The translations under genes and the position numbers were made by a program. 64,000 nt of DNA. Origin: Paraspadella gotoi (taxonomy: Eukaryota > Animalia > Chaetognatha). Where the stretch lies: contig CM119264.1 of the NCBI GenBank assembly GCA_051294375.1, forward strand, positions 15,154,682 through 15,218,681, given 5' to 3'. Position 1 is the stretch's first letter. Every line of letters starts with the position of its first letter. The notes beneath the pieces are model-generated. The model saw nothing but the letters and a program-made list of their open reading frames with translations. It was not told where the DNA came from and did no database searches. Shown in pieces: positions 14,205-62,264 of the stretch.

Positions 14205-15882
14205 TTAAAAATCCCAGCGTGACTTCTTCTTCTTCGAGTCGTCGGGAAGAGGAGGGGGAGAAAACACATGAGGGTCGGGCGCGGGCTGGGGTGGGGGTGG
14301 CGGTGGCGGAACCGGCATGGGATGGGCGGAGGAGTATGTCGGAGACGGCTTTGCCGTGTACCCGGGGGGAGGCGGGGGAAGGTGTCTCTTCTGGCGTTTC
14401 ATGGTCTCTTCAATTTGATCGTCTGTAATGACTTTTCCATAGGAGAACATATTTTCCTCTTTTGTGTCCGACCTTAGAAAATTACAAATTAAGTTCCGGA
14501 CAAGAAATTGCGAAAGTTAAAAATAATTAATATAGTATGGTAGACTAAAATCCACCAACCGTTCATCAGCGACCATTAGTGCAGGATGCAAGTCCTTCGC
14601 CTCCCAACCCAAAGGTCCGGGGTTCTAGCCCGGTGGTTGCCTAGCAGTTAAGAGGGACCGGGCGCTTCACCCGCCTGTAACACGGTGTTACAGCCCGATC
14701 TGAAGCTCAGGGGCTGCTTATATTCTAGACTTACGCTCGCTTGAGGATGCCCTTAGGGGGTTCAACACCCGTTTCGTTCTGCCGCTCAAGTTCTGAAGCA
14801 AGTGCGCGCGATCGAGTCTCCGACTCCCAACCTTCTACTCCGGCGGACTGGAAATGGGATCTGAATAGAGAAATAGGAAAGAGGGTTTTTCATTGCAGTA
14901 AGAGATGGAACTGCAAATTCAATTCGATTTTACTTGTATTGGCCGATAAAGGCGGAGCGAATAGTGGCAACTCGGTTGGTCTGTTGTCCGGATATGTTGA
15001 ATATCGAGGCGGAAGTTCCCTTTGATCCACCAAGTGCTTCGCGGGCGTCGGCAGTCGTTCCGCCCGGAGTGGAAGGACCGGCGGTACCGCTTTGGCTGCT
15101 GCCAAGGCCAGGTCGTTCACGAACACCGAAGGAACCGAGTTTTTTTCCTTTTCCGCCCTTGTATCGTGAATTTCTGAACCAAGACGACTGCATGGCTAAC
15201 TCCATTAAGTCGGCCGGCACCTCCTGATTAACGCTCTCTAAATTGCGAACCAAGTGGCCTGCAAATTCTTTGTCCTTGGCAACGACAAGAGTATACGCAT
15301 CGCCCGTTTCCCCGGCCCGGCCAGTCCGACCAATACGGTGCGTGTGCGTATCGATGTCACGGGCAACGTCGTAATTGACGACAGTTTTAATGTGGGGAAT
15401 GTCGAGACCGCGGGCTGCCACGTCCGTGGCAACGAGAACGGGAAACTCTTTCTTCTTAAACCTACAAATAATTCAAATCATAAACATTTATAAATAAATT
15501 AAATATACATTGATATACAATATACAAGGAAGTTCGAGTTAAGTTTTTATTTATTAGTTTTAATTTAATTATTAACTTATGAGAGTTTCAAGGATTAGTA
15601 AGAAATAATAAATGGAACGGCCGTTTTTATATACCTGGCGATGACGTTGTTCCGATCAACCTGATGCATGTCTCCATGAAGAAGCTCCAAAACAACGTCC
15701 TGCTTCTTCAAATTCTCCGCTAACTCCTCAGAGTTTTGTTTCTTGGTGACGAAGATAAGGACAGAACCGAGAGAGGTGAATCTGACGATGTTGGATGTGA
15801 GCCATTTCCACTTGAGAGAAACCTCTTTAAAAACTATGACATGTTGACGCACGTTCTCGTTGGCTTCCCCCACCGCCTCACC
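14205..15882 (-). CDS. DDX42: DEAD-box helicase DDX42, C-terminal half (exons approx. 15882-15635, 15461-14936, 14859-14735, 14473-14205)
   Basis: [72 protein letters not shown] and terminal KKKKSRWDF typical of DDX42. Confidence 0.93.
14536..14724 (+). mobile_element. Truncated, decayed LTR of the tRNA/twister TRIM inside the last DDX42 intron
   Basis: Aligns with the LTR at 56026; twister cleavage motif TAA mutated to TCA; 3' end missing. Confidence 0.8.
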
Positions 15883-18384: not shown

Positions 18385-18584
18385 TTGATGCGATGATAGC
18401 CAGTCATTGATGCGATGATAGCCAGTCATTGATGCGATGATAGCCAGTCATTGATGCGATGATAGCCAGTCATTGATGCGATGATAGCCAGTCATTGATG
18501 CGATGATAGCCAGTCATTGATGCGATGATAGCCAGTCATTGATGCGATGATAGCCAGTCATTGATGCGATGATAGCCAGTCATT
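18385..18584. repeat. 22-bp tandem array (ATTGATGCGATGATAGCCAGTC) ~9 copies
   Basis: Directly visible perfect repeats. Confidence 0.95.
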
Positions 18585-19210
18585 AGACACATTTGAATCC
18601 GACAATGTTTTAAATAAACAACCAGTCTCGGTGTCATTCTGTTCGTTTTTCCAAGCTCTTTTTAACTAAAAAAGTTTTATTTAAAAAAAAAAAACTTTTT
18701 CGCCCGAGCCAGGGGTGGTAAAGAGCCAAAATATGGAATTTCACCTTTTATGAGTATTTTTTAGCTTTTTTCAGTAATTTTTTTAATATAATTATCATTA
18801 ATCAAGTTAATTACTAATGATAATGCTTTTAAATTATCATATTTAACTATTTTTAAAACATTCATTTGCAAAAAATATTGGTTTAGGGCTTAAGCCAGGG
18901 GTGTTAAAGAGCTAAAATTTCTAAATTGTTTTTTTTAATATTTTCAAATAATAATTTACTATTTTTTTAAGGATTACATATTTTAATCATGATATTAAAA
19001 ATATTTGAAAATTTTAAATGGTTTTTTAAGTTAAGTAACATAGTTAATTATTTTTTTTATAATTAAAAGCATTAAAAAAATTGTAACCTATTTCTAAAAA
19101 GTTTTTTTTAAAAGATTCATCTTAAAAACAAAGAAATTTATAATTTTTTTTAATCATATAATGAAATTGTTATAACCAGGGATGTGGAGCTGGAGCTGGA
19201 GTCGGAGCTG

Positions 19211-45400: not shown

Positions 45401-48400
45401 TGGGGTTTTTATTTCACTTTAGTCTTTCAAGTCTGATTCAAGTTTCACTTTGTCTTTTGTCTGGGAATTCTGACAGTGTTTAGAGAGGTCGCATTCGATC
45501 AAACTGCTCGCTTATGCGTGCTTAAAGTAAAACAAAAGTACCTTCAATAATGTTACTCCAGTCTTAGCACTTGCTAAAAATTAAACTCGAAAATAAGTTA
45601 TTTTATTGTTTTATATTTATTCTTTTGACAATGAAAAAGTTTTTTTTTTTTTAGAAACTAACTGTAAATTGACAATCGCAAAATAGAATTTTTCTTTCTG
45701 TTTATAAATTAATTTTCTTTTTTTCCCCTTTATATTCTTTCTTTCCTTTCTTTCCTTTCTATTCTTTCTTTCCTTTCTTTCTATTCTTTCTATTCTTTCT
45801 TTCCTTTCTATTCTTTTTTTTCTATTCTGTCTTTCCTTTTTTTCCTTTCTATTCTATTCTTTTCTTCTTTTTCTTTCTGTTTATAAATTTTTTTTTTCAA
45901 ATTTGATTTTTTTTAGTATCAAAATTTGTCGTCAATCCAGATTTTTCTTATGCAATTGTGACGATCCTTATGCTTTTAAGATTTTTTCGATATAAAATAA
46001 AAAGAAAAATTGACAAAAGTGATTAAATGTGACAAAAAGAGTAAAATTAATGAAAGTTAAGCAACTGAGAGAAGAGTTGCTTGCTGCTTAGCGATCGAGT
46101 AAAAAAGTCATCGTCCAAAGAAAGAAAACTAGTTATTCTATTTTTTTCATTCATTACCTTTGTCAAGCTTGTTCTACAGAACTGAGTTGAATTATAATTT
46201 GGGTTAAATATATTGCCTAATCAAAGGTTGTAAAAGACTTGGAAAAATATATTAAGCTTGCTTGATTAATTTAAGAATAGATCCGACTTGTTGATAAATT
46301 CATCAACTATACAAGATATGAAATGAATAAAAATCAAAGATGAATTAAAAATTATATTTATTTCAAAACTAAATTGACTCTTTACAATAGACTTAATTAT
46401 TAACTATAAATCATGAATAGATAACAAAAAAATAGAATAACTAGTTTTCTTTCTTTGGCACTATAGATGATGATCTTTTTTTTTCTCGACCGGCAAGCAG
46501 CAAGCAACTCTTTTCTCAGTTGCTTAACTTTCATTAACTTTACTCTTTTTGTCTCATTTTATCAATTTTTAATCATTTAATCACTTTTATCAATTTTTCT
46601 TTTTATTTTATATAAAGAAAAAATTTTAAAAATTACCTTATTTAAAAGTCATATTCCTTTATAAAATAATAAAAATTTAAAAAAAACTTTAAGGACCTGG
46701 TGAAACAAATCAGAATTTAATATTTTTTTATTTACAGAAAAAAGAAAAGAAAAGAAAAGTGAAAAAGAGAAAAAGAGAAAAGTTCATTCCCTTTTTCCCT
46801 TTAGCCTAGTTCAAACCTATTAAAAAATAATAATAATTAAGGAAAGTGATTTTTTTAAATTTAAAAAATTATAACTTTTTAACCGATAATCTTTTTTTAA
46901 AAATTCTTTCAGCAAAACAAAGGCAATTCGCCATAATTTTTTTTAAAAAATATTTCACGAACATTGTTAAAAATATCATTTTTAAAAAATTTTATCAAAA
47001 ATTGCCCAAAACAATAGGTTTTAAAAAAAATTTTCCTTAGTAAAAAACTAACTTAATTTATAATGCTGACTACTACCATCTACAACTCAGATGCTCTTTT
47101 ATATAGGAGATATCGACGTTCGTCTCTTTCTCTCTTTTGCGTTCATTCCAGATTCTGCGTTGAAACGGGACTCTTCTCCAAAATAATGAACGTTTGTGGA
47201 TTCTTTGTGGACGTTTAGTGGTTTCTTCGTGGATTTGTTTATTTGATTATATTGCTTCTTTGATTAATCATTTGATTATTAGTTAGTATTTCATTGATTG
47301 TATTGTATGAATATCTATATGCTTTGATTATTTTATTAAGGTACCATTGAAGAGACAGTAATTATTGATAAGTGTTAATGACAGAACCATTCAATATAAG
47401 CAGTTCCTGAGCTTCGGATCAGGCTGTAACACCGTGTTATAGGCGGGTTAATCGCCCCGTCCCTCTTAACTGCTAAGCGGCCACCGGTCTAGAACCCCGG
47501 ACCTTTGGGTTGGGAGGCGAATGACTTGCCTCTGGCACCAATGGCCGCTGATGAACGGTTGGTGGAATTTAGTCCACCATACATCCCCCCCTCCCGTAGG
47601 GAGAAGTCCGTTGCGTCTCTTCAGTGAATTGTTGTTGGTGGAAAGTGCGTCACCAAGTTGAGGCATGTCGCCTGATGTGTTGTGGGCGGAAAGTGCATCG
47701 CCAGGTTTTAGGCATGTCGCCTGAAAGTGTTGTTGTTGCTGTTGGGTTTGGAAGTCGGGCTCACCAATGAAGAGACAGTAATTGTTGATAAGTGTTAATG
47801 ACAGAACCGTTCAATATAAGCAGTCCCTGAGCTTCGAATCAGGCTGTAACACCGTGTTACAGGCGGTTTAAGCACCCCGTCCCTCTTAACTGCCAAGCGG
47901 CCACCGGGCTAGAACCCTGGACCTTTGGGTTGGGAGGCGAATGACTTGCCTCCGGCACCAATGGCCGCTGATGAACGGTTGGTGGAATTTAATCCACCAT
48001 ACCATTAAATATCAAGACTCCAAGTGGATAAGAAACTTATAAACTTTACGGCGCCAGCGGTCCCGGTCTTCAGTCTAGTTTCTCTCCCGACGTCTTCTCT
48101 CTCTCCGCTAGGTCAAGGAGGGGGTTCTTACAATGCGAGGTATGTAACAGTCAATTTTTTCCGCTCTTACAAGATAGTTGGGGTTTCGTCCCTCTAGCAA
48201 TAAAGCTTTAAAGATATTTAACAAAAATCCATTTTTACTTTTTTTTTTCATTTTTTCAAAGTTGTCAGCATTTACTGTAATTTTTTTTTTTTGAAAAAAA
48301 AAGTTCAAAAAATTCATATGATGTATGGGCACCTTTTACACAACTCGTTTTTTGATTTCAAAACTTTTCATATATGGAAAGGTCTAATCCCACGACCCGT

Positions 48401-51400
48401 AATCATCATCTTTCAATAATTTTATTATTTTTTCTTAATTTTGACCAAAAAAACAAAAATTTTTGAAAGTTATATTTTTATTTAACTTTTTATGCTCTAT
48501 CAGAATCCATCAAAAATAAGTTAATATTGATTAAAAAAGTTTTTATCATTATATAGTAATATTATAATTTTGAAAGCAACATTAAAAGCATTAAAATCGA
48601 ACTTTTTTTTAAAATTCTTTTTTTACCTAAAAATAGACTTCAAGACAAAAGTTTTGAACCCGCGCCCCTATTGAATTTAATTTCATAGTAGATTTCTACC
48701 AGTAACCACCTTTAACCCTAAATACCCCTAACCTTAACCAAATTTTATATATAGGAATAAAAAAAAATAACCGACCGGTTCCGGTGGGCGAAAGTACAAT
48801 TATGCCCAAGATAATAATCTACTTACTCATCATCATATTAATCTACATACTCAGACAGAAGCTTCAGTCTTTAGCGATTCAAAAATGCGAAGACCTCAAC
48901 TTTGAAGGAAGACTTTTGGACTCAAAACGCGCGGAGATGGAGGGAAAGTTAAAGACGAACAAAAGCCAAATTTACTCGCAACAGCGACATCTAGAAAAAT
49001 TGAAGAGAAAGTCAGACAAAATGGATTTAAGAAATAAAATAGAAAATGATTCTTTGGACATCGTCGTTAAAAGGCACGAAAAGGTAAAAAAAAGATAATT
49101 TGCCCGAGAAAAGAAATTTGTTTGACCAAAATGAAATTTCTTTTGATATATAATTTAGATGAGAAAAAAGAAATTCTTTAAATCAACGATGGTTTATTAA
49201 TATCCGTACATCCGTACAACATGTTTCGACTTTAGGTTAAGTCTTCATCAGCGCTTGACATGTTGATACAATGATACATAATTTGAAATCTTAGTTACAA
49301 CTCGAAGTGGAAAAAAGTCCTTGCTTGCCGAGCGACGCCATTACACAATTAACTAACTTGAAGCACGAAGTGGACGCAGCAAGAAGGAATCTTTTCTTTG
49401 AAGGAAGTTTGAGCATCGCGGAACAACTCGCCACCGAGAAAGCCAAAGGGATTGAGTTCGCGATGGTCAAGGAGCTCGTAAGTAATAAGTAATAAGGGGG
49501 GAAATTTTGCTGATTGTGCTGCCGATCATACATACAGTGTGTCCCAATGGTACTGTCGGTTAACTTTGACATTGTTATTTCAGAAATGAGATTTAATAAT
49601 ACAGTTCCGCACAATTTGTAAAAGATAAGTTATTACCATTTATGATACGATATTTCGAATTCAATTTTTATCAATTTTTCTTTGCAGAACATTCAATTTA
49701 AATGAGTCATCATTTCTCACTTTTTAAATTTTTAGATATTTTTTTATTTTAAAATAAATTTTATTAAAAAAATTAAATAAAAAATATTTTAAATAGATAT
49801 AAATTATTTAAATATTAATTTGTATATAATAAGTGCATTAATAAATAAAAATAAACAAATATACAAAATACAAAATTGATAAAAATATGCTAATTAATTT
49901 TATATTTAAATTTTATTATTTGAAGTTGTGAGCGACTAAATCATTAAGCCAGAACAAGATGGTTGCTATTAATTCAATAATAAAATTACAATTAAAAAAA
50001 TAATATAAATAAGGTAAGTAGATAATTTTAAAAATAATGATTACTGAATTATAAAATCTTTGGAGCTAAAAATATGAGGTAGTTTCTTACTGTCCTACAT
50101 ATAAAGAAAAGATTTAAAACATTATTTAATCAATATTATAAAAAATATTTGTTAAATATTAAAAAATATATAATTAAATTTTTTTGGTTCAAAATCACTG
50201 AAAAAATTGGAGTTTGCTTTGTTCAATTTTTAAAATTTAGGTATCCTATAAAATGGTCCATATTTGTGCGCATATTCATTATAATGAATTTGTGGAGGAC
50301 AGTCGACGACGACTATGGTCGACGATTCGACCGACCTTTTCGTCCCCGTTGGGTCACTTGATATGACCGACGTTTCTCTCTCTTTCTGACTCGTGCTCCC
50401 CTCCTTATAAGTAGATACCGTCACTCGAATAAACCTTTCATTGTTATTCTTACATTTTACATTGTAATAAATGTATATTATCATTAAACATTGTTTCCTT
50501 TTCCAACGTCGCTATAAATTAAAGTTTTTCGATCTGGTCTAAGAGCAGTAAGCTTTTCTTAACAGACAGTACCATTGGGACACTCTGTATAAGTGTATTG
50601 TCTGGTGGTCCTATCACCACAGATGGATTAAAGCTGTTTCTTTCGCAGCGCCTCAGTGGCTCAGTGGACTAATGCACCATCCCAATGTGCGTCCCTGGTT
50701 CGAGCCCTGAGGTTGTCATGTAGTAAGTGGGATGGACCGGGTAACCCGCCTGTAGGCATGGGCCTACTGCCAGATCCAAAGCTCTGGACTACATGAACAT
50801 GCTGTCTCGCTGTCGCCACGAGGTGACACCGCTGCGGGGTGTGGCGCCCTGTAAACTAGTGTTCCGTTAACCGTTAACTGTTAACGGTTATTAACGGTTA
50901 AAAATAATTTTAACTTAACCGTTAATATATTCATTTAACGATTAAATTCGGTTAATTTTCAAATGTGATTTTTTTATTTTTGGTATGAAATCTTTAAATT
51001 TAAAAAAAAAACTATTTTTTTTCTTTCTCTCTTATTCTCACCATATTTTTACCCCTCTCTCTTCTCTCAATTTTTCCCGGCTTTTTTCCTTTGTTATTTT
51101 CTCCTTTTTTTCTATCCTCATCTCTCTCTTATTCGTTCTTCCCCTTTATTTATCTCCTCCTGTTCCTTTCTTTTTCTTTCTCACTTTTCCCCTTTTTCTT
51201 CCCCCTTTCTTTTTTCCCTTTTTTCGCCCTTTGCTTTTACCTTTTTCCTTTTTTTTGCCCTTTCATGCAATAATATATATTCAATTTAGCTAAAATAAAT
51301 AATCCCTTTTATTTTACTTTTTCTCTCTTTTTCTTTCCCTCTTTAAAATTAACAAAGAAGCAAATGAAATTAAACCGAATGAATGAAAAAAAATGAATAA

Positions 51401-52777
51401 AAACCAAATAAAAAATTCTTTTAAAAAATTTAAAAATTAATAATAGAAGGAACGAATCTTAAAAAAGACATATAAAAATAATAATGATGATATACTTTTT
51501 AATTAAAATGAAAAATATATTTATAATCAATAAATATTTTGATCAATCGATAAATCAACCAGTCTATCAATAAATTAAAATTCATATTTATATTTATGGT
51601 CAATGACCATTGCATTGGTCATAGTTTATGAAAAACTTACAACAGAAAACAAGCGTTTAAGAAACTACAAAAATAATGGGGAATAGAAGAAGTAGAGAAA
51701 GAAAAAGAAAGCAAAAGAGAGAAAGAGAAAACAAAATATAGAATTAGAATTTGATGGTATCCTTTCGTTCGTTGTGTGTTATGAGATTAGCAAAAATATT
51801 TTTTGTTACAACAACAATTTTATTTGACATAAAAAATAGACATATTTCGACTCTGTTTCAAGTCTTTATCAGCGCATTCAAGAGCCAGAGTTAAAGAGAA
51901 AATACCATTAAATACTTTATTTTGTTTTAAATCTTAATATTTTAAATTTAAAGTTGAATTATAAAATTAACCGATCTTAACGGTTAACCGTAAAAATGTT
52001 AGTTTTAACGCGTTAAGCGGAATTTCCTAAAAAATTAACGGTTATCGGAACTCTATGTAAAACCAGCCTCTTCAATATATCAAATCTGAAAAACGTTTTG
52101 TAAATTTAATGTGTGAGGCTATCAAAATGTCAAATTCTGCTAATACCAGGATAAACTTCGAACTGAAGGAATTGAGATGGGTCGATTGACTACCCTTTTG
52201 ACGACAGATAGAGAAGAGAAGTCTCGCGACGTTATGAAGGCTCAGGACAGACTTAAACTGGCCAAGGAAGACAAGAAAGTAAAGTCGCAGGTGAGATGCG
52301 CGTCATAATAAATCATAAATTAAGCTTAAGAAATTATCAAAATGTGTCTTCACAATTCACTTAAAAAACATTTGTTGTATTTTAACATTAAACGTTCAGA
52401 CAATAGACTATCACGAAAAGAAATTGAAAGAGGTGCAAGATAATCTTCGAAGGTTCGCCCAGTTTTATGAAAAGGAAAAGAAGTTAAGGAACGACGCTGT
52501 TTTTAAAATTCAGGAGGTACATTTAGAATTATGATCGTTTTTTATGATCTGTCATTCGATTTTACCTCTGATTTACAAATATCAACCTCAGTGTCAGCAG
52601 TTGGAGGTGGAGATGAAGGAGAAGATTCACCATCACAGCAACGAGATTCAAAATCTGGAATTTCTCTTCAAAAGACTGGACGGCCAGCTGCTGCGGCGCG
52701 CAAAACGGTCCGTCGAGACCAAAAGCCTCAGGGATGCCATCAAAAGGGACACGGAACAAACAAGCGCCAATATTCAG
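24425..52777 (+). CDS. CCDC146: CCDC146/MBO2-like axonemal coiled-coil protein, partial (exons approx. 24425-24478, 24659-24800, 24886-24999, 25126-25432, 27141-27331, 41418-41576, 42613-42795, 48855-49083, 49295-49477, 52150-52290, 52400-52516, 52591-52777); C-terminal third not in window
   Basis: DREEKSRDVMKAQDRLKLAKEDKKVKSQTIDYHEKKLKEVQDNLRRFAQFYE aligns with CCDC146 DEKEQKSKDFLKAQQKY..KAKDLEIRIHKKK..RLREFAKLYD; LKHEVDAARRNL ~ LHKEVEVAKRNL; LNITPA ~ LSETPA; colinear order. Confidence 0.8.
25580..27082 (-). mobile_element. HINE family 1 partial copy hosting HINE family 3
   Basis: Body homology; resumes at 27013 after the insert. Confidence 0.65.
26068..27012 (+). mobile_element. HINE family 3 (Helentron derivative) inserted in a T-run
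   Basis: 5' palindrome AGTTGCGCCGCGAGTACTCGCTGAGCAACT, 3' subterminal IR GCGGCGTAAC, hairpin GGAATAATCGTTCC, CTTGTT end, no TSD. Confidence 0.7.
28140..28573 (+). mobile_element. L1/Tx1-clade non-LTR retrotransposon ORF2 fragment (post-RT region); duplicate at ~35840-36271
   Basis: KLTLWKTRPL..TNIFLYSALWY..KEIAKDRL..YYNCGAQLMDIRDKVKAQRIMWIKRLL resembles the L1/Tx1 'GGLGL.D...K.KA....WI.RLL' segment. Confidence 0.6.
28694..28736 (-). ncRNA. Minimal type I hammerhead ribozyme (PLE pLTR); duplicate at 36390-36431
   Basis: CA-CUGAUGA-A-GGCUCU(loop)AGAGCC-GAAA-CAUG-UC^UG; palindromic ACAUGU stem III. Confidence 0.85.
28976..31165. mobile_element. hAT-like non-autonomous element inserted in the PLE 3' UTR
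   Basis: Termini T(T/A)GGGTGGAG...CTCCACTCTA, ATGTACA duplicated at both flanks; left end also at ~57305 and ~61179. Confidence 0.6.
33230..34398 (+). mobile_element. 3' end of an LTR element: orphan ORF, PPT and ~207-bp LTR (34192-34398); duplicate 39361-40440
   Basis: G-rich tract GGGGGGCGGGA directly before TGTGG...CTACA with internal AATAAA; GC-rich frameshifted ORF upstream. Confidence 0.55.
35034..41040 (+). repeat. Near-identical tandem copy of ~27302-35008 (probable haplotype/assembly duplication)
   Basis: Begins at an N gap with many indels; same nested TE order; lacks ~29200-30760. Confidence 0.85.
36341..39213 (-). mobile_element. Second copy of the Penelope-like element
   Basis: Near-identical to 28646-33080 with the same 5' truncation point. 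Confidence 0.9.
41714..42475 (-). mobile_element. HINE family 1 diverged full copy
   Basis: Both termini present. Confidence 0.7.
42810..42965 (-). mobile_element. Possible old tRNA-derived SINE
   Basis: GC-richer island with B-box-like GGTATCGAAGC and terminal hairpin GCGG..CCGC; single copy here. Confidence 0.3.
43060..43332. mobile_element. Tc1/mariner-type MITE with long imperfect TIRs
   Basis: TA|CAAGGTGACACAC...GTGTGTCACCTTG|TA, inverted similarity over ~90 bp. Confidence 0.85.
45990..46612. repeat. Foldback element/MITE with ~160-bp inverted arms
   Basis: 45990-46147 is the imperfect reverse complement of 46427-46612. Confidence 0.75.
47400..47473 (-). ncRNA. Type-P5 twister ribozyme in 3' LTR (a more mutated one at 47820-47893)
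   Basis: GCAGUU-AAGAGG-GA-CGG-GGCGAU-U^AA-CCC-GC-P3-CCUGA-UCCGAAGC-UCAGG-AACUGC. Confidence 0.8.
47897..47968 (-). promoter_or_regulatory. 72-nt tRNA-like internal Pol III promoter in the TRIM LTR (not a functional tRNA)
   Basis: 7-bp acceptor stem GCGGCCA/TGGCCGC, A-box-like TGGTGCCGGAGG, B-box-like GGTTCTAGCCC, loop CTCCCAA. Confidence 0.75.
49215..49255 (-). ncRNA. Hammerhead motif in a solo PLE pLTR remnant (CCDC146 intron), weak stem I
   Basis: CUGAUGA-A-GACUU..AAGUC-GAAA-CAUG-UU. Confidence 0.6.
50716..50796 (+). ncRNA. Type-P5 twister ribozyme, family 2; predicted cleavage 50742/50743
   Basis: UCAUGUAGU-AAGUGG-GA-UGG-ACCGGG-U^AA-CCC-GC-P3-CCAGA-UCCAAAGC-UCUGG-ACUACAUGA. Confidence 0.82.
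50857..52055. mobile_element. hAT-like MITE; related inverted partial copies at ~34400-35008 and ~40441-41196
   Basis: TIR TAG(T/A)GTTCCG(T/A)TAACCGTTAA, subterminal AACCGTT motifs, ~8-bp TSD TGTAAA(A)C. Confidence 0.8.
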
Positions 52778-53160
52778 GTCGGTCAGAGAGACAATGTTTG
52801 TGTGTTTATTATGTAACAAAAAGGTTATAAGAATCATGTGTAGCAAAAATATTAAAATAATCAAAATTCGAATAGAAGATTAAGAACAGGCTTGTACCTG
52901 TGAACTTTTTTAAATAAAAACAATTTAATTTTTATTTTTTAATTTCGCATACGCCCATATTTATACATAGAAAATATTAAAATTTTAAAATGTTTTTTCT
53001 TATTTTTAAAAGCAGATTCGAATTCCTGACAAAAAGTTGACATAAGGAAATATAACTCTTTTTCGAAAATTATTTCATTAAGTAGATCAAAATCCTAAAA
53101 AAACTATTATTATTAACCTCGTCGTGAACTTCCTTTCTTTTTCGTTGTGATTGCGCATTG

Positions 53161-53983
53161 GAAGACGTTTTTAATGTTTTTCTACAACGACTTTATTTGT
53201 AAAAACGTACATGTTTCGGCTTACATACAAGCCTTCTTCAGCGTTAACAAATTATTTGTGAATTTTTAAATTGATTTGTGCAAAAGAAGAAGAGAGAGAG
53301 AGAAAGAGAGAAAAATAGAGAGAGAGGGCGATTCGATCTCCCTCCAAGCTATGATAGGCTTATCAAAAGCGTGGTGGAGGCCCCGTCTCCACCACGTCCG
53401 CACAATGATTCCCCTGTATCCACTCAACGAAACAGGCGGAGACCTTTGCGTAAGCAATGGGCGAACGATGCCTCTCCTTCACCAGCAGCAACTCACTCTC
53501 TCTCTCTGTGGAGTGAGCGCCCACCCAAAAGACAGCTGCAGGAGGAAGGGGAGGAGTCCACAACTCGTGTTGCAAAAGTAGCAAGAATGGACAACCGCCC
53601 ACCTCGCCAGCCGGCGAGAAGAGGGCAGTCAACAGCCGTACCAGGCCAGAGAGACATTCGGGTAGCCCTTGGACTCTTCCCACAAGGAAGCCTCCCTTGT
53701 CCAGCTCAAACAGGCTCAACCGACTTGTCCTCTCAACCACTGACGCGTCAATGACGACCCCATCGATTAGGCCTTTCATTTGCTTCAACCATCTCTGTGT
53801 TGGAAACTTTGCCCTCTCTCTCTATTTTTCTCTCTTTCTCTCTTCTTCTTTTGCACAAATCAATTTAAAAATTCACAAATAATTTGTTAACGCTGAAGAA
53901 GTGAAGAAGGCTTGTATGTAAGCCGAAACATGTACGTTTTTACAAATAAAGTCATTGTAGAAAAACATTAAAAACGTCTTCAA
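53161..53983 (+). mobile_element. Short Penelope-like insertion: inverted pLTR (53161-53329), ORF C-terminus, pLTR
   Basis: GRFDLPPSYDRLIKSVVEAP.. matches the PLE tail; 53161-53329 is the reverse complement of ~53811-53981. Confidence 0.88.
53204..53245 (-). ncRNA. Minimal type I hammerhead (intact); sense copies at ~53889-53938 and ~57810-57860 carry an 8-nt core duplication
   Basis: AACG-CUGAAGA-A-GGCUU..AAGCC-GAAA-CAUG-UA^CGUU. Confidence 0.85.
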
Positions 53984-54185
53984 ATACTATTAACCTATAA
54001 TTAGTTTTCAGTATAAAAAATATAGTTTTTTAAATTTTTGGCTAACTTAATGAAAGAATTTTTGATGAAGAGAGATTAATTAATTAATTAAGAGATTAAT
54101 TAATTAATCTCTTTGAGGAATTCGAATCTGCTTTCAAAACTAATAAAACGTTATTTTAAAATTTTAACATTTTCTATGGTAAGTA

Positions 54186-55887
54186 CAGGGTAGTGAATCA
54201 AAACTTAGAATAGAATTCATAAGATTTCGATGGCAAAAAATTAATGAATTTTATTTTATAATACATCAAAATAGTCACTGATATTTTTTCTCTCTGATAG
54301 CGGTTTCATTTTTTTCATACTTCACGGTACCGAGAAGAATGCAACGTTGTATGGTGGACTAAAAGTCCACCAACCGTTCATCAGCGGCCATTGGTGCCGG
54401 AGGCAATCATTAGCCTCCAACCCAAAGGTCCAGGGTTCTAGCCCGGTGCTGGCGAGCAGTTAAGAGGGATGGGGCGCTTAACCCGCCTGTAACATGGTGT
54501 TACAGCCTGATCCGAAGCTCAGGGACTGCTTATATTGAATGGTTCTGTCATTAACACATATCAATAACTACTGTCTCTTCATTGGTGAGCCCGACTTCCG
54601 AACACAACAGCAACAAACACTTTCAGGCGACATGCCTCAACTTGGTGACGAACTTTCCACCAACAACAATTCACTGAAAGACGCAACAGACTTCTCCCTA
54701 CGGGAGGGGGGATGTATGGTGTTACAGCCTGATCCGAAGCTCAGGGGACTGCTTTATATTGAATGGTTCTGTCATTAACACATATCAATAATTACTGTCT
54801 CTTCAGTTGGTTGAATTTGCTCCGCGCCGGATTTCAGCTTAAAACCACTATTAAAATATATTAATATTCCCTAGTAGTAGGTTATATTATTAAGAAAGTT
54901 ATTAAGAATAGGAATAACTAGTATTCTAGGTCGGGAAACCGTGCACTAAAGCTCAGTCGATTAGAGCCATATATAAGGGTGCTGTAAGCAACAATTGTAG
55001 CATACCCAAAACCAACAATAGACGTGCTGGAAACACCTTTATATGCTAAAAGGAAAATTCTAAAGAGAGAAAATGAAGAACTAAATTTAGAAATATATAC
55101 TGGGACATGTTATCTTTATTACCCTATAGCGATTAAGCTGCAGCAGTTTGAAAAGTTATTTTTATCCTTGATTATAAAAAGCAATTTTAAGAGGCTGTAA
55201 AGATTTATTTTTTTTCTCAAGTTCACACTGTAGTGGCCCCTCTGGCTGAGTGCGATCTCTGTGATCTTATGAAAACAATAACTACTGAAGTTGGGACTCT
55301 ATGTATAAAATATCAAGTTAATAGCATAATGCAACCTACTGCAGCGTCAGATAAAAAAAATTTTTCTTTGTATTTTTGCTACTGGGTGAAAAATCATTGC
55401 TGCAGTCTATTATAGAGTACTGAGATTCCATTTCTTGATATTTATGAAGAAGCAATACCCTTGGGTTTAATATGTATGGCAGTAACAAAGAGCTTTATTG
55501 TTTACAGCTGAAAAAAATAAAGATTTCAAATGCAGTAACATTTTAATTTTTGACTGAAGGATTTTTCGCTTGATATTATTATTATTATTATTATTAAATT
55601 CTTTTTAACTTTGCTAAGTAAGGCGTTTTAAAGGGCGGCACCCGTATGACTTTTAACCAAAATATTGATAGGCGAGGATAATCCGTTTATGAACAGCAGC
55701 TGTGATTCTTTTGGGTGCTGTGGCAGGTGTCGTTTTTGCAACAGTGCTTATCGCATTGCATTAATAGTTAGAACAAGGTCTGGTTAAGTATCTTTAATTA
55801 ATTTTTTTTCATTAAATGCACACGATGCATCACAAAATAAAAAAAAGATGGTGATACGGATTTTCTAAGTTTTGAATCACTACTCTG
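54186..55887. mobile_element. Tc1/mariner-like non-autonomous element (same family as 3352-5574) hosting a TRIM
   Basis: TA|CAGGGTAGTGAATCAAAACTTAG...CTAAGTTTTGAATCACTACTCTG|TA. Confidence 0.8.
54350..54805 (+). mobile_element. TRIM copy with internally deleted 3' LTR; twister at 54456-54529; duplicate 58265-58717
   Basis: TSD GTTG, PBS, PPT; empty site seen in the host family copy at ~5410-5430. Confidence 0.9.
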
Positions 55888-56025
55888 TACTATGTATAAA
55901 TATGGGCGTATGCAAATATTGAGAAATTTAAACAAACTTTTTTTATATATCTATGTTCTTTAGTCCAAGACTGTTCATGTTTAACTATTCAAATTTGATC
56001 TGAAACTTTCGCTACGCCTTAATGT

Positions 56026-56676
56026 TATGGTGGACTAAAATCCACCAACCGTTCATCAGCGGCCATTGGTGCCGGAGGCAAGTCATTCACCTCCCAACCC
56101 AAAGGTCCGGGGTTCTAGCCGCGTGGTCGTCTTGGCAGTTAAGAGGGACGGGGCGCTTAACCCGCCTGTAACATGGTGTTACAGCCTGATCGAAGCTCAG
56201 GGACTGCTTATATTGAACGGTTCTGTCACTAACACATATAAATAATTACTGTCTCTTCATTGGTGAGCCCGACTTCCGAACACATCAGCAACAACAACAC
56301 TTTCAGGCGACATGCCTCAACCTGGGATGCACTTTCGCCCACAACACATCAGGCGACATGCCTCACTTGTGACGAACTTTCCACAACAACAACAATTCAC
56401 TGAAGAGACGCAACAGACATCTTCCTACGGGAGGGGGGATGTATGGTGGACTAAAATCCACCAACCGTTCATCAGCGGCCATTGGTGCCGGAGGCAAGTC
56501 ATTCACCTCCCAACCCAAAGTCCGGGGTTCTAGCCCGGTGGTCGTCTGGCAGTTAAGAGGGACGGGCGGCGCTTAACCCGCCTGTAACATGGTGTTACAG
56601 CCTGATCGAAGCTCAGGGACTGCTTATATTGAAACGGTTCTGTCACTAACACATATAAATAATTACTGTCTCTTCA
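56026..56676 (+). mobile_element. Complete TRIM copy (tRNA+twister LTRs); duplicate 59909-60552
   Basis: Two LTRs, PBS TGGTGAGCCCGAC, PPT, TSD ATGT. Confidence 0.92.
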
Positions 56677-57539
56677 ATGTGTATGTTATTTATTAGTTAT
56701 TACGATAACTTAACCTCTCACAAATTTTAACTCAGAAGTTATTAGAAATATTTTTCTTTCAAATTGATAAAAACTTCATTGTGTCGTACAAAGACTTAAT
56801 TTTTATCTCACCAGACGTGCAAGGCCCGTCTTGGAGTGATTTAGCATTGTTTCTTTGTGCTATCGTCGTCGTTGTCGTCACAATTTTTTACAGTTAAAAT
56901 TTATAAAAGTGTGTAATCATAAAAAGCTAAAAATTTAGATTATATCTATTTTTATGTAAAAACTATTACGAATTGCGATTGATTCTTGTAAAAATCCGAT
57001 CATAGGAAGCAAAAAATTTAGTTATAAAACAATATTTTTAAAGATCTTGATAATGAGAAGCCATATCGATACTCAGATTTGTTTGTTTTATTTACAAAAC
57101 AATTTTTATATAAAAACTACTACTACTACTACTTTTTCTCTGTCGCTGCCTCTTCTGATTTGTTTAAAAACGAGTTCAGCTCTGCAACGGCTAAACTTCT
57201 CTTTCCCTTTTTTTTCCTTTCTCTCTTTCTCTTTCTCTCTCTTTCACTCATACACGTGTTTTATTTATCGCATGAATAATTAGGTATCATGGCATTAATA
57301 ATTAGTAGGGTGGAGTGATGAAAAGGTTGAGCGATGGAACAATGTTTTTTTGTTGCCTTTGTATATGTAATTTAAAAAAATTAAACCCTTTTTTAAATAA
57401 ATTTTGCATAACAGTATCATTAATTAAATTTTCTTTATAGTAATATCCTTATAAAATCATAAAATTTCAAAAATCATATTTTTTTTAATTGGATTCGCCG
57501 GAAAAAACTAAAAAACTTTTGTAAAATAAAGAGAGAGAA

Positions 57540-60500
57540 TGAGAAGAGGGCAGTTTCACAGCCGTACCAGGCCGAGAGACATTCTGGAGCCCTTGACTCT
57601 CCCACAAGGAAGCCTCCCTTTGTTCCAGCTCAAAAGGCTCAACCGACTTGTTCTCAACCACTGACAGGCGTCATGACGACCCCATCGATTAGGCGCTTTC
57701 ATTTGCTTCAACCATCTCTGTGTTGGAAACTTTGCCCTCTCTCTCTATTTTTCTCTCTTTCTCTCTTCTTCTTTTGCACAATTCATTTAAAAATTCACAA
57801 ATAATTTGTTAACGCTGAAGAAGTGAAGAAGGCTTGTATGTAAGCCGAAACATGTACGTTTTTACAAATAAAGTCATTGTAGAAAAACATTAAAAACGTC
57901 TTCAATATATTAACCTATAATTAGTTTTCAGTATAAAAATATAGTTTTTTAAATTTTTGGCTATTACTTAATGAAAGAATTTTTGATGAAGAGAATTAAT
58001 TAATTAATTAAGAAGATTATTAATTAATCTTTGAGGAATTCGAATCTGCTTTCAAAACTAATAAAACGTTATTTTAAAATTTTAACATTTTCTATGGTAA
58101 GTACAGGGTAGTGAATCAAAACTTAGAATAGAATTCATAAGATTTCGTGGCAAAAATTAATGAATTTTATTTATAATACATCAAAATAGTCACTGATATT
58201 TTTTCTCTCTGATAGCGGTTTCATTTTTTCATACTTCACGGTACCGAGAAAGAATGCAACGTTGTATGGTGGACTAAAATCCACCAACCGTTCATCAGCG
58301 GCCATTGGTGCCGGAGGCAAGTCATTAGCCTCCCAACCAAAGGTCCAGGGTTCTAGCCCGTGGGCTGCGAGCAGTTAAGAGGGATGGGGCGCTTAACCCG
58401 CCTGTAACATGGTGTTACAGCCTGATCCGAAGCTCAGGGACTGCTTATATTGAATGGTTCTGTCATTAACACATATCAATAACTACTGTCTCTTCATTGG
58501 TGAGCGACTTCGCGAACACAACAGCAACAACACTTTCAGGCGACATGCCTCAACTTGGTGACGAACTTTCCACCAACAACAATTACGAGAGACGCAACAG
58601 ACTTCTCCCTACGGGAGGGGGGGATGTATGGTGTTACAGCCTGATGCCGAAGCTCAGGGACTGCTTTATATTGAATGGTTCTGTCATTAACACATATCAA
58701 TAATTACTGTCTCTTCATGTTGAATTTAGCTCCGCGCCGGATTTCAGCTTAAAACCACTATTAAAATATATTAATATTCCCTAGTAGTGGTTATATTATT
58801 AAGAAAGTTATTAAGAATAGGAATAGTATTATCTACGGAGACAGTGCACTAAAGCTCAGTCGATTAGAGCCATATATAAGGTGCTGTAAGAAACAATTGT
58901 AGCATACAAAAAACCAACAATAGACGTTGCTGGAAACACCTTTATATGCTAAAAGGAAAATTCTAAAGAGAGAAAATGAAGAACTAAATTTAAGATTATA
59001 CTGGGACATGTATCTTTATTACCCTATAGCGATTAAGCTGCAGCAGTTTGAAAGTTATTTTTATCCTTGATTATAAAAAGCAATTTTAAGAGGCTGTAAA
59101 GATTATTTTTATAGATATCTTAGTGCTCTGCTGAGTGCGATTTGTGATCTTATGAAAACAATAACTACTGAAGTTGGGACTCTATGTATAAAATATCAAG
59201 TTAATAGCATAATGCAACCTACTGCAGCGTCAGATAAAAAAAAATTTTTCTTTGTATTTTTGCTACTGGGTGAAAAAATCATTGCTGCAGTCTATTATAG
59301 AGTACTGAGATTCCATTTCTTGATATTATGAAGAAGCAATACCCTTGGGTTTAATATGTATGGCAGTAACAAAGAGCTTTATTGTTTACAGCTGAAAAAA
59401 ATAAAGATTTCAAATGCAGTAACATTTTAATTTTTGACTGAAGGATTTTTCGCTTGATATTATTATTATTATTATTATTAATTCTTTTTAACTTTGCTAA
59501 GTAAGGCGTTTTAAAGGGCGGCACCCGTATGACTTTTAACCAAATATTGATAGGCGAGGATAATCCGTTTATGAACAGCAGCTGTGATTCTTTTGGGTGC
59601 TGTGGCAGGTGTCGTTTTTGCAACAGTGCTTATCGCATTGCATTAATAGTTAGAACAAGGTCTGGTTAAGTATCTTTAATTAATTTTTTTTCATTAAATG
59701 CACACGATGCATCACAAAATAAAAAAAAGATGGTGATACGGATTTTCTAAGTTTTGAAATCACTACTCTGTACTATGTATAAATATGGGCGTATGCAAAT
59801 ATTGAGAAATTTAAACAAACTTTTTTAATATATCTATGTTCTTTAGTCCAAGACTGTTCATGTTTAACTATTCAAATTTGATCTGAAACTTTCGCTACGC
59901 CTTAATGTTATGGTGGACTAAAATCCACCAACCGTTCATCAGCGGCCATTGGTGCCGGAGGCAAGTCATTCACCCCCAACCCAAAGGTCCGGGGTTCTAG
60001 CCCGGTGGCGTCTGGCAGTTAGAGGGACGGGGCCTTAACCCGCCTGTAACATGGTGTTACAGCCTGATCCGAAGCTCAGGGACTGCTTATATTGAACGGT
60101 TCTGTCACTAACACATATAAATAATTATTGTCTCTTCATTGGTGAGCCCGACTTCCGAACAATCAGCAACAACAACACTTTCAGGCGACATGCTCAACCT
60201 GGCGATGCACTTCCGCCCACAACACATCAGGCGACATGCCTCAACTTGGTGACGAACTTTCCACCAACAACAACAATTCACTGAAGAGACGCAACAGACA
60301 TCTTCCTACGGAGGGGGGGATGTATGGTGGACTAAAATCCACCAACCGTTCATCAGCGGCCATTGGTGCCGGAGGCAAGTCATTCACCTCCCAACCCAAA
60401 GGTCCGGGGTTCTAGCCCGGTGTCGTCTGGCAGTTAAGAGGGACGGGGCGCTTAACCCGCCTGTAACAGTGTTACAGCCTGATCCGAAGCTCAGGGACTG

Positions 60501-61400
60501 CTTATATTGAACGGTTTGTCACTAACACATATAAATAATTACTGTCTCTTCAATGTGTATGTTATTTATTAGTTATTACGATAACTTAACCTCTCACAAA
60601 TTTTAACTCAGAAGTTATTAGAAATATTTTTCTTTCAAATTGATAAAAACTTCATTGTGTCGTACAAAGACTTAATTTTTATCTCACCAGACGTGCAAGG
60701 CCCGTCTTGGAGTGATTTAGCATTGTTTCTTTGTGCTATCGTCGTCGTTGTCGTCACAATTTTTTACAGTTAAAATTATAAAGTGTGTAATCATAAAAAG
60801 CTAAAAATTTAGATTATATCTATTTTTATGTAAAAACTATTACGAATTGCGATTGATTCTTGTAAAAATCCGATCATAGGAAGCAAAAATTTAGTTATAA
60901 AACAATATTTTTAAAGATCTTGATAATGAGAAGCCATATCGATACTCAGATTTGTTTGTTTTATTTACAAAACAATTTTTATATAAAAACTACTACTACT
61001 ACTACTTTTTCTCTGTCGCTGCCTCTTCTGATTTGTTTAAAAACGAGTTCAGCTCTGCAACGGCTAAACTTCTCTTTCCCTTTTTTTTCCTTTCTCTCTT
61101 TCTCTTTCTCTCTCTTTCCACTCATACACGTGTTTTATTTATCGCATGAATAATTAGGTATCATGGCTTAATAATTAGTAGGGTGGAGTGATGAAAAGGT
61201 TGAGCGATGGAACAATGTTTTTTTGTTGCCTTTGTATATGTAATTTAAAAATTAAACCTTTTTTTTAAATAAATTTTGCATAACAGTATCATTAATTAAA
61301 TTTTCTTTATAGTAATATCCTTATAAAATCATAAAATTTCAAAAATCATATTTTTTTTAATTGGATTCGCCGGAAAAAACTAAAAAACTTTTGTAAAATA
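57540..61400 (+). repeat. Near-identical tandem copy of ~53617-57527 (probable assembly overlap artefact)
   Basis: Same TE order and TSDs; indel-rich at the junction. Confidence 0.85.
60430..60501 (+). ncRNA. Type-P5 twister ribozyme with intact core; predicted cleavage 60453/60454
   Basis: GCAGUU-AAGAGG-GA-CGG-GGCGCU-U^AA-CCC-GC-CUGUAAC..GUUACAG-CCUGA-UCCGAAGC-UCAGG-GACUGC. Confidence 0.8.
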
Positions 61401-61604
61401 TGTTTTATGATATTTTTAGATTAAAGCTGCAAAAAATAACTAAAACGTTTCATCATATAATAGTTTCTACTACAGAACGTAAAAAAGTAGGATATTTTAA
61501 TCTTTTTTTCCATTTTTGATACTGAAGGCATTGAAATTTTTAATAACATATTTTTATATTTTTGATCTAACTTTTTATGAAGAATCAGAATCTTTAATAA
61601 AATA

Positions 61605-62264
61605 CTATGATTCGCTTATCAAAAGCGTGGTGGAGGCCCCGTCTCCACCACGTCCGCACAATGATTCCCCCATCTCCACTCACGAGATAGGCGGAGACCC
61701 TTGCGCAGGCAATGGGCAGACGATACCTCTCCTTCAACTGCAGCAACTCATTCCCTTCCTCTGTGGACTGAGCGCCGCCAAAGCGACGGCTGCAGGAGGA
61801 AGGGGGGAGGCCACCACTCCTGTCGCGAAAGTGGCAAGAATGGACAGCCGCCCACCTCGCCAGCATGCCAAGAGGGCAGTCGGTAGGCGTACCAGGCCAG
61901 AGAGACATCCGAGTAGCCTTTGGTTTCTTCCCGCAAGGAAGTCTTCCCAGCTCTGCACTAGTAGGCTCCACCAACCTGTCCTCTCAGCCAATGACACACC
62001 AATGACCCGACCTTATCAATCTAACCTTTCATTTGTTCATAACCAAGGGGGGCCAGCTCATTTTTGAGCTCTTTCTTATTACTTGAAATTTCCCTTTTCC
62101 TAATTACTTAGCTATCCCTCACTAACAATAAATATTTCACATTTCTGAACTTCTATTTCATTTCACTAATTTATTATGTAGCTAATTGTTGATATTATTC
62201 ATTATTAAAGTTTACCAAATTTTAACATTGTTGTACATTTCATAATGTAATATATTTTCAGGCA

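What the first reader, a model, noticed from the sequence alone, without database searches (positions are those of the whole stretch)
47348..60552. Candidate new system: miniature LTR retroelement whose LTRs pair a tRNA-like Pol III promoter with a twister ribozyme (a twister 'retrozyme')
Seen: three independent insertions (47348-48001 -, 54350-54805 +, 56026-56676 +; TSDs ATGG, GTTG, ATGT) of a ~650-bp non-coding unit LTR-PBS-186 bp-PPT-LTR. Each intact 234-bp LTR holds a 72-nt cloverleaf with A/B boxes followed within ~4 nt by a sequence with the twister landmarks: U^AA, GC (T2), P3, P4 with loop UCCGAAGC, and GA+CGG pairing to the loop (T1), closed by P5. Established: Cassandra and Helenus TRIMs carry Pol III small-RNA sequences in their LTRs, and plant retrozymes carry hammerheads in LTRs and make circular RNAs. 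I do not recall an LTR element combining a tRNA promoter with a twister. Inference: Pol III transcription from the 5' LTR and cleavage at both twisters would release a unit-length ~420-nt RNA (234+186) with 5'-OH/2',3'-cyclic phosphate ends, ready to circularise and to be reverse-transcribed by a Gypsy partner via the PBS/PPT.
Basis: partly seen in the sequence, partly recalled or inferred. Interest (0 to 1): 0.95.

Follow-up and report, generated by a model that had tools for sequence, protein, structure and literature searches.

The report
Animal LTR retrozyme with twister ribozyme
An invertebrate genome carries two families of tiny non-coding retrotransposons whose terminal repeats join a tRNA-like head (likely a promoter) to a conserved twister-type RNA fold, which is predicted to cut the element's RNA to unit length and possibly let it circularise, a design so far described with hammerhead ribozymes in plants.

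Summary
The window has a high-copy, ~650-bp Helenus-type TRIM (234-bp LTRs, PBS, PPT, 4-bp TSDs). Each LTR carries a tRNA-like head followed by a P5-permuted twister motif with intact catalytic A and G and both pseudoknots. Between the two families 26 of 27 predicted pairs are kept, 6 by double changes (null P 5e-6 to 4e-4; registers set by hand). Against this: no Rfam twister model hits, P1 is only a 6-nt palindromic linker, P2 is bulged, the cloverleaf is partial, and there is no RNA evidence. Published Helenus consensus sequences showed no twister, but two wasp families appear, by eye, to carry an unreported hammerhead at the same position with a nearly identical PBS. Best reading: a likely Pol III-transcribed LTR retrozyme whose twisters release a ~420-nt unit that probably circularises (0.5). 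Main rival: the ribozyme mainly forms the 3' end of a linear RNA (0.25). New variant of a known kind.

The parts
47348..48001 (-). Family-1 complete element (LTR 47768-48001, internal 47582-47767, LTR 47348-47581), TSD ATGG; LTRs differ at 13 of 234 sites, so an older insertion
47897..47968 (-). 72-nt tRNA-like head of the 5' LTR: 7-bp acceptor stem, T arm, weak A box, B box with one mismatch (3' LTR copy at 47477-47548)
   Evidence: no tRNA called
47818..47896 (-). Twister-like motif of the 5' LTR, predicted cut U47870/A47869; this copy has point changes in P2 and L4
47398..47476 (-). Twister-like motif of the 3' LTR, predicted cut U47450/A47449
47754..47766 (-). PBS, 1 nt after the 5' LTR; 12 of 13 nt match the tRNA-Trp-type PBS printed for Helenus-2_SyJa and Gypsy-32_NVi
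47582..47595 (-). Polypurine tract plus the TG dinucleotide that precedes the 3' LTR but is absent at integrated 5' ends
56026..56676 (+). Family-1 complete element, TSD ATGT; motifs at 56132-56209 and 56546-56625 (1-nt gap in L4, possibly an assembly error)
59909..60552 (+). Tandem-duplication copy of the 56026 element; motifs at 60012-60088 and 60427-60503 (predicted cut U60453/A60454, general base G60442)
54350..54805 (+). Family-1 element with intact 5' LTR (motif 54453-54531, T1 G-U variant) and internally deleted 3' LTR, TSD GTTG
58265..58717 (+). Tandem-duplication copy of the 54350 element (motif 58368-58446)
14536..14724 (+). 3'-truncated, decayed family-1 LTR; the A at the cleavage site and T1 are changed
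50601..50856 (+). Family-2 LTR, main piece: tRNA-like head ~50648-50716 with consensus A box (50657-50667) and B box (50697-50707), then twister-like motif 50717-50795 (predicted cut U50742/A50743)
52056..52074 (+). 3' end of the family-2 LTR, separated by a TIR element at 50857-52055; it ends in the same CTCTTCA as family 1
   Evidence: (loose ends behind 50855)
60344..60516 (+). 9-bp inverted repeat (60344-60352 / 60508-60516) that encloses head plus ribozyme; the 5' arm lies upstream of the head. It is present, sometimes with a wobble, in family-1 LTRs

Best explanation
This is a non-coding, Helenus-type miniature LTR retrotransposon of an invertebrate whose LTRs join a tRNA-like head to a conserved twister-type fold; it is likely transcribed by Pol III from the 5' head, is predicted to cut itself at U^AA in both LTRs into a ~420-nt unit, and that unit would probably be circularised and copied by a likely Gypsy-type helper. 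Shown: LTR-PBS-PPT-LTR anatomy, 4-bp TSDs, many insertion sites, two families, all catalytic and pseudoknot nucleotides, compensatory changes, and no TTTT on the sense strand. Inferred: Pol III transcription (A/B boxes, no T-run); cleavage (twister chemistry leaves 5'-OH and 2',3'-cyclic phosphate); circularisation (double cleavage leaves no R repeat, the problem plant retrozymes solve with circles); helper identity (4-bp TSD, tRNA 3'-end PBS). P1 is replaced by a 6-nt linker with a palindromic core, so the ribozyme may work as a P1-less monomer or as a dimer.
For: Anatomy and TSDs. Hundreds to thousands of contigs in three runs of one organism, and 41 and 65 contigs leaving the LTR end into unlike flanks. 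The second family is multi-copy, begins after a G-rich tract, ends CTCTTCA, and one contig joins LTR end back to LTR start. Segment-by-segment match to the S. mansoni twister table (UAA, P2, GC, P3 start, L4, GA+T1). Family 1 vs 2: 26 of 27 pairs kept, 6 double changes; on 20 non-anchor pairs 19 kept against null means of 10.6-12.5, P 5e-6 and 4e-4. T1 third pair seen as G-C, G-U and A-U; 95% of cells paired against 26-46% when slid. Control: 0 of 21 chance matches of the anchor pattern in three prokaryote/virus collections form more than 2 bp of P4, against 6 of 6 window matches with 5 bp. The motif is the best-kept part of the LTR (56/81 against 48/80 head, 21/44 U3, 25/61 U5). No TTTT in 5 of 5 elements (3% of dinucleotide and 27% of mononucleotide shuffles). 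Literature passages: P1 is dispensable; P1 and P2 imperfections are tolerated; retrozyme double cleavage gives an R-less RNA that circularises. Parallel case read by eye: a hammerhead behind the tRNA head in Helenus-2_SyJa and -2_SyUm.
Against: No Rfam twister-P1/P3/P5 hit even at E<=10 on 191-1001-nt stretches. Three departures from the consensus: no real P1, a 3-bp bulged P2, and A-U where the pair closing L4 is described as an essentially invariant G-C. The tolerance data come from type-P1 ribozymes only. Covariation rests on two families with hand-set registers in P3 and P5; the tool's row-shuffle control gave 23 of 500. The predicted circle is 51-52% paired (z -1.3 to -2.4), below the >70% given for metazoan retrozyme-like RNAs. 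In pseudoknot-free folding of family-1 LTRs the twister-compatible fold costs 2-12 kcal/mol and P5 often does not form. The family-1 A box is weak. A minority of contigs show another letter at the cleavage-site A (the reference has indels nearby).
Confidence: 0.5

Rival explanations
1. The twister is active but serves mainly as the 3'-end former of a linear RNA, in place of a Pol III T-run. The 5' copy often escapes cleavage, so the RNA runs from the tRNA head to the 3' U^A site with a ~100-nt R repeat and is reverse-transcribed in the ordinary LTR way.
For: The head-to-cut distance is 95-100 nt, a usable R. No TTTT in the element, whereas most hymenopteran, fungal and many mollusc Helenus LTRs read have a T-rich run after the head (fish families do not). 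A U3:U5 inverted repeat exists only in the 3'-LTR copy of the transcript, and it raised P5 pairing in 3 of 7 family-1 LTRs. The circle is weakly structured.
Against: The U3 effect was absent or reversed in 4 of 7 family-1 LTRs and absent in family 2; for the LTR-only folds the energy differences were about 2 kcal/mol or less and of both signs. The two ribozyme copies are otherwise the same sequence. Plant elements with this layout make circles.
Confidence: 0.25
2. The motif is a twister-derived passenger, captured with a tRNA-headed SINE or an RTE-like 5' end, that no longer cleaves; the element is an ordinary Helenus.
For: No Rfam hit; three consensus departures. Helenus is proposed to arise by SINE insertion into an LTR, and twisters occur at RTE/Perere-3 5' ends. 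Several window copies carry damaging changes.
Against: A neutral passenger would not keep 26 of 27 pairs through 15 substitutions, nor every catalytic base, while U3 and U5 fell to 41-48% identity. The motif is in the P5 permutation, not the P1 form tabulated for S. mansoni.
Confidence: 0.15
3. The conserved fold is real but has another role, such as an RNA dimerisation or packaging signal through the palindromic linker, or a helper-protein binding site; it may be derived from another small RNA and only resemble twister.
For: Both families keep a 4-nt palindromic core of different sequence in the linker, with self-duplex energies of -8.3 and -8.1 kcal/mol (1 in 16 by chance for the second family). 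A resemblance of part of family 2 to the 3' half of 5S rRNA is recalled, from no call.
Against: No 5S or other relevant Rfam family at E<=10. Both pseudoknots and the catalytic A/G are kept in twister order and spacing, which a packaging role does not require.
Confidence: 0.1

Closest known systems
Helenus TRIMs (TRIMp3; Kojima 2024, PMC10886601)
   Same: Short non-coding LTR element; tRNA-like sequence with A/B boxes in each LTR; PBS, PPT and 4-bp TSD as in animal Helenus. TA...CA ends also occur in some wasp Helenus. The PBS is nearly that of Helenus-2_SyJa.
   Different: A twister follows the head. The paper's main text has 0 occurrences of 'twister' and names 'ribozyme' only in a reference. 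Exact searches for the loop and core motifs in its supplement found no twister. No family-level sequence match was seen in the 5 of 11 supplement parts read.
Helenus-2_SyJa and Helenus-2_SyUm (Synergus wasps, same supplement)
   Same: By eye: tRNA-like head, no T-run, then a self-cleaving ribozyme motif in the LTR; Trp-type PBS; 4-bp TSD and 277-bp LTR listed for SyUm.
   Different: The motif reads as a type III hammerhead (GUC site, CUGAUGA, GAAA, three stems, complementary loops), not a twister. It is not mentioned by the author and was not run through any tool here.
Plant LTR retrozymes (Cervera et al. 2016, PMC4918200)
   Same: Non-coding; one ribozyme in each LTR; PBS, PPT, 4-bp TSD; double cleavage gives a unit without R.
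   Different: Type III hammerhead, tRNA-Met PBS, 600-1000-nt highly paired circles, plant hosts, and no tRNA-type promoter described. Metazoan retrozymes are described as lacking LTR, PBS and PPT.
Schistosoma Sm-alpha-type SINE-like repeats with hammerhead (reviewed in PMC6765202)
   Same: A Pol III promoter followed by a self-cleaving ribozyme; tandem copies needed to release a unit.
   Different: Non-LTR, hammerhead, no PBS or PPT.
Twister variants of Perere-3/RTE non-LTR elements (Liu et al. 2021, PMC8501958)
   Same: Closely similar core: UAA, GC, start and end of P3, L4, GA+T1, variable or weak P1.
   Different: Type-P1, one copy at the 5' end of an autonomous LINE. Here it is P5-permuted, one per LTR, behind a tRNA head.

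Membership tests
Helenus | Non-coding TRIM within the described length range, two LTRs with PBS and PPT between them | tested here: met
   644-654 bp; (family 2: LTR ends and a PPT-like tract seen, PBS not seen)
Helenus | tRNA-like sequence with A and B boxes in the LTR | tested here: met
   Family 2 has consensus boxes; family 1 has a weak A box, a B box with one mismatch, and paired acceptor and T arm. No tRNA call, as for most Helenus
Helenus | 4-bp TSD (animal type) | tested here: met
   3 of 3 independent family-1 insertions; the single family-2 copy has no clear TSD
Helenus | Sequence relationship to a published Helenus family | tested here: inconclusive
   Only exact short-motif searches and reading 5 of 11 supplement parts; no alignment was run; Repbase and Dfam not available
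Helenus | Pol III transcription | not testable with these tools
   No RNA holder listed; also unproven for Helenus itself
Twister ribozyme | U^AA site with general-acid A, and general-base G followed by A | tested here: met
   Present in both families and 9 of 10 motif-bearing LTRs; changed in the 14536 copy
Twister ribozyme | Pseudoknots T1 and T2 | tested here: met
   T2 invariant; T1 with G-C, G-U and A-U at its third pair
Twister ribozyme | Stems P2 and P4 in consensus form | tested here: inconclusive
   P4 is 5 bp with a compensatory change but has A-U instead of the near-invariant G-C next to L4; P2 is 3 bp with a bulge; such P2 flaws were tolerated in type-P1 tests
Twister ribozyme | Stem P1 | tested here: not met
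   The 6-nt linker forms no hairpin, only a self-duplex; P1 is reported dispensable
Twister ribozyme | Match to an Rfam twister model | tested here: not met
Twister ribozyme | Site-specific self-cleavage | not testable with these tools
   needs in vitro transcription
LTR retrozyme | One ribozyme motif per LTR, PBS, PPT, 4-bp TSD, no ORF | tested here: met
LTR retrozyme | Type III hammerhead and tRNA-Met PBS | tested here: not met
   The motif is twister-type and the PBS Trp-type; so it works like a retrozyme but is not a member as defined
LTR retrozyme | Highly self-paired unit RNA | tested here: not met
   51-52% paired, z -1.3 to -2.4, in 3 of 3 units
LTR retrozyme | Circular RNA accumulates in vivo | not testable with these tools
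   only contig-level, DNA-like runs were available

The most novel reading that the evidence does not exclude
Animals harbour an unrecognised class of Pol III-driven LTR retrozymes in which the ribozyme is an exchangeable module behind a tRNA-like promoter: a P1-less, possibly dimer-forming twister in two families here, and a type III hammerhead in two already-catalogued wasp Helenus families. Both would make circular RNA templates for Gypsy reverse transcriptase.
Probability: 0.4. Interest if true: 0.9.

Novelty: new variant of a known kind. Interest (0 to 1): 0.78.

Why it matters
In the papers seen, LTR retrozymes are plant elements with hammerheads and animal retrozymes lack LTR, PBS and PPT. 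Twisters in genomes have been tied to a function only at the 5' end of LINEs. If the motif cleaves, this would be an LTR retrozyme-like element in an animal, a retrozyme built on a twister, and a natural P5-permuted twister without a P1 hairpin. It also makes an open question directly testable: how a Pol III-promoter TRIM defines its RNA ends when both LTRs are identical. The same position seems to hold a hammerhead in two wasp Helenus families. That suggests the solution arose more than once, and that TRIM libraries hide ribozymes which Rfam models miss.

Tried and rejected
Rfam at gathering score on the window and at E<=10 on three stretches: no twister, tRNA or 5S family; only weak chance-level hits. 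ARAGORN: 0 genes. No host genome is held, so there was no genome-wide copy set, host tRNA or Gypsy partner search. Pattern scans of viral, metagenome and prokaryote genome contigs gave 1, 14 and 6 matches, none with a P4 stem, so no homologues; they were used as a negative control. A scan for canonical P5-type twisters with short linkers in viral contigs gave 1 match without P4. Sequencing-run search: no RNA holder listed; the run guessed as RNA has the same depth profile as the DNA runs, so nothing is concluded on expression. Organism B gave 2 contigs only; organism D gave none for family 2. A covariance model from 6 motifs found no third family in the window: beyond known copies and their opposite strands, the best hit was E 0.3. 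One search used a mis-registered structure string and is discarded; one search replaces it and leaves out P5 and inner P3, which the MAFFT alignment misplaces. The idea that U3 switches on only the 3' ribozyme was inconsistent across copies. Host lineage: the DDX42 exon groups with four unnamed sequences on a long branch, best named hit at most 64% over the full exon, so the phylum is unresolved. Earlier findings of the scan: none in 3 look-ups. Two literature searches timed out.
Full report
Observation. The window is animal DNA (36% GC, exons of DDX42-like and ubiquilin-like genes, Penelope-like fragments named from recall). The lineage could not be resolved and no whole genome is held. Three independent insertions have 4-bp TSDs: 47348-48001 (-), 56026-56676 (+) and 54350-54805 (+). 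The copies at 59909-60552 and 58265-58717 belong to a 3.9-kb tandem duplication. The 54350 and 58265 copies have lost most of the 3' LTR, and 14536-14724 is a truncated, decayed LTR. LTRs are 234 bp and run TA...CA; the 3' LTR is preceded by a polypurine tract and a TG that is absent at integrated 5' ends. The 47348 LTRs differ at 13 sites. The 56026 and 59909 LTRs differ at 2 sites plus 5-6 gap columns, which look like assembly errors. In three public runs of one organism 851, 2838 and 1777 contigs lie on one LTR plus internal part, and 41 and 65 contigs leave the LTR end into unlike flanks, so the family has many insertion sites (depth there is not a copy number).

The tRNA-like head. A 72-nt segment begins 33 nt into the LTR. 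In the 47348 copy its acceptor stem pairs over 7 bp and the T arm forms, but the D and anticodon arms are degenerate, the A box is weak and the B box has one mismatch. ARAGORN and Rfam call no tRNA. It is a SINE-like head, as described for Helenus, most of which are not functional tRNAs. None of 5 elements has TTTT on the sense strand; 3% of dinucleotide shuffles and 27% of mononucleotide shuffles lack it too. That fits Pol III read-through, weakly.

The ribozyme-like motif. Within a few bases of the head the sequence reads P5 - UAA - P2' - GA - T1' - 6-nt linker - U^AA - P2 - GC - P3 - P4 - L4 - P4' - P5'. These are the segments of the S. mansoni twisters tabulated by Liu et al., in the type-P5 circular permutation (types defined). 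The general-acid A, the general-base G and both pseudoknots are present. Three things depart from the consensus. P1 is a linker that forms no hairpin but can self-pair (-8.3 kcal/mol). P2 has 3 pairs and a bulge. The pair closing L4 is A-U, where a review calls G-C essentially invariant. No Rfam twister model hits, even at E<=10 on short stretches; whether these departures cause the miss was not tested. High-throughput tests of about 1,900 natural type-P1 twisters found P1 and P2 imperfections tolerated and pseudoknot or catalytic changes harmful, and P1 can be deleted. Those data do not cover the P5 permutation.

A weak BLAST match at 50677-50787 is part of a different LTR. It has consensus A and B boxes, then the same motif. 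A TIR element splits it at 50857-52055, and its end at 52056-52074 is CTCTTCA as in family 1. Public contigs show that it is multi-copy (162, 124 and 68 contigs in three runs, 0 in a fourth of another organism). Flanks diverge at 50601, a G-rich tract precedes the LTR in some contigs, the LTR end is confirmed, and one contig runs from LTR end back to LTR start. Its PBS was not seen, and this copy has no clear TSD. Between the families identity is 21/44 in U3, 48/80 in the head, 56/81 in the motif and 25/61 in U5. Of 27 predicted pairs 26 are kept through 15 substitutions, 6 by changes on both sides. Leaving out pairs used as anchors, 19 of 20 are kept against null means of 10.6 and 12.5 (P 5e-6; 4e-4 with transition bias). 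Registers in P3 and P5 were set by hand, and only two lineages are compared. On a MAFFT alignment of 6 motifs, the 18 pairs it can represent are 95% paired against 26-46% when slid; the third T1 pair occurs as G-C, G-U and A-U; the row-shuffle control gave 23 of 500. As a control, the anchor pattern matched 21 places in virus, metagenome and prokaryote collections. None forms more than 2 bp of P4 and 6 of 21 pair at T1, against 6 of 6 window matches with 5-bp P4 and paired T1. Both families keep a 4-nt palindromic core of different sequence in the P1 linker.

Mechanism. Shown: anatomy, mobility footprints, conservation of the fold. Inferred: Pol III starts at the 5' head; the twister cuts about 100 nt later and again in the 3' LTR, giving 416-420 nt with 5'-OH and cyclic-phosphate ends and no R repeat. 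Plant retrozymes face the same lack of R and circularise, after which the PBS primes a Gypsy reverse transcriptase. The PBS matches the Trp-type PBS of Helenus-2_SyJa and Gypsy-32_NVi at 12 of 13 nt; the host tRNA could not be checked. I give this cycle 0.5. Against it, the predicted circle is only 51-52% paired, family-1 LTRs do not favour the twister-compatible fold in pseudoknot-free calculations (2-12 kcal/mol; family 2 2.8), and there is no RNA evidence. The main rival (0.25) is that the 5' copy often escapes cleavage and the ribozyme forms the 3' end of a linear RNA with a ~100-nt R. A U3:U5 inverted repeat could bias cleavage to the 3' LTR, but the effect appeared in only 3 of 7 family-1 LTRs and not in family 2. 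An inactive passenger (0.15) or a non-catalytic role (0.1) explain the covariation and the kept catalytic bases less well. The motif being a true twister homologue is about 0.9, and its being active in master copies about 0.75.

Comparison with what is known. The element meets the Helenus definition (TRIM, tRNA-like LTR, PBS, PPT, 4-bp TSD). That paper never mentions twister, and exact motif searches of its whole supplement found no twister core (line breaks can hide matches). Reading 5 of 11 supplement parts showed none either. Two wasp families in it, Helenus-2_SyJa and -2_SyUm, have what reads by eye as a complete type III hammerhead right behind the tRNA head, no T-run, and a Trp-type PBS. 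Of 5 matches to the hammerhead core string, 2 are these; the other 3 are in fungal entries and showed no hammerhead context in the passages displayed. This was not run through a tool. The element works like a plant LTR retrozyme but is not a member as defined: different ribozyme, PBS and host, and a weakly paired unit. Reviews and a 2026 preprint describe animal retrozymes as non-LTR and hammerhead-based. Pol III promoter plus hammerhead is known in Schistosoma SINE-like repeats, twisters at LINE 5' ends, and twister-bearing circular RNAs in metatranscriptomes.

Literature seen. PMC10886601: main text parts 1-4 of 6, term search, supplement parts 1, 5, 7, 8, 9 and three string searches. PMC8501958: abstract, passages, section 19. 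PMC11662667: abstract and passages. Passages only: PMC7761336, PMC6765202, PMC4918200, PMC5408937, PMC13570524, 10.64898/2026.07.22.740005, 10.1101/2022.07.19.500677. The original twister paper (Roth 2014), Repbase and Dfam were not available. Nine answered searches listed no paper describing an LTR or TRIM element with a twister; most hits were seen as listings only, and subscription journals are not covered.

Verdict. A real and unusual element: a new variant that combines two known kinds, with good structural evidence for the ribozyme and no direct evidence yet for cleavage or circles. Interest 0.78.

Noticed in passing
PMC10886601 supplement DataS1, Helenus-2_SyJa-LTR and Helenus-2_SyUm-LTR: An apparently complete type III hammerhead behind the tRNA-like head, with 12-nt complementarity between loops 1 and 2; not mentioned in the paper; judged by eye only.
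   Followed up: partly
PMC10886601 supplement, Ajax-1_NGe-LTR and Ajax-1_LiLo-LTR: These share a 12-nt string with the family-1 cleavage-site region, followed by a hairpin, but show no matching L4 or T1 by eye; probably chance.
   Followed up: partly
window 53616-57528 and 57541-61400: A 3.9-kb tandem duplication at 96.5% identity with many 1-nt indels; may be a real duplication or an uncollapsed long-read haplotype.
   Followed up: partly
window 49534-50588 and 50857-52055: Two TIR-bounded non-autonomous DNA elements flank or split the family-2 LTR (one TA-flanked and Tc1-like, one with a roughly 8-bp TSD and hAT-like; class names recalled).
   Followed up: partly
window 31658-32380 (-), 37611-38156 (-), 53275-53821, 61501-62067: Fragments of a Penelope-like element with a GIY-YIG-type C-terminus (named from recall), with large duplications at 30756-35008 / 36884-41042; not checked for hammerheads.
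   Followed up: no
window 14930-15472 (-), 8828-9352 (-), 12176-12682 (-): Exons of a DDX42 helicase and a ubiquilin-like gene; the DDX42 exon is 72-78% identical to four unnamed environmental proteins and at most 64% to named animals over its full length.
   Followed up: partly
window 56301-56375 and equivalents: The internal region has a ~41-bp direct repeat in two copies in the 47348, 56026 and 59909 elements and one copy in the 54350 and 58265 elements, so at least two subfamilies exist.
   Followed up: no
window 54714-54722 and 58627-58635: The 3'-LTR deletion joins two copies of a 6-nt microhomology and removes the head and the catalytic half of the motif from one LTR only.
   Followed up: partly
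window 17888-18610: Adjacent 19-bp and 22-bp minisatellite arrays, with related degenerate arrays near 9700-10900 and 17060-17330.
   Followed up: no
window 50648-50716 and 47897-47968: Both families keep a paired acceptor stem and B box with different sequences while the anticodon arm decays; possible RNase P/Z or RT recognition was not tested (weak mascRNA hit, E 4.1).
   Followed up: no
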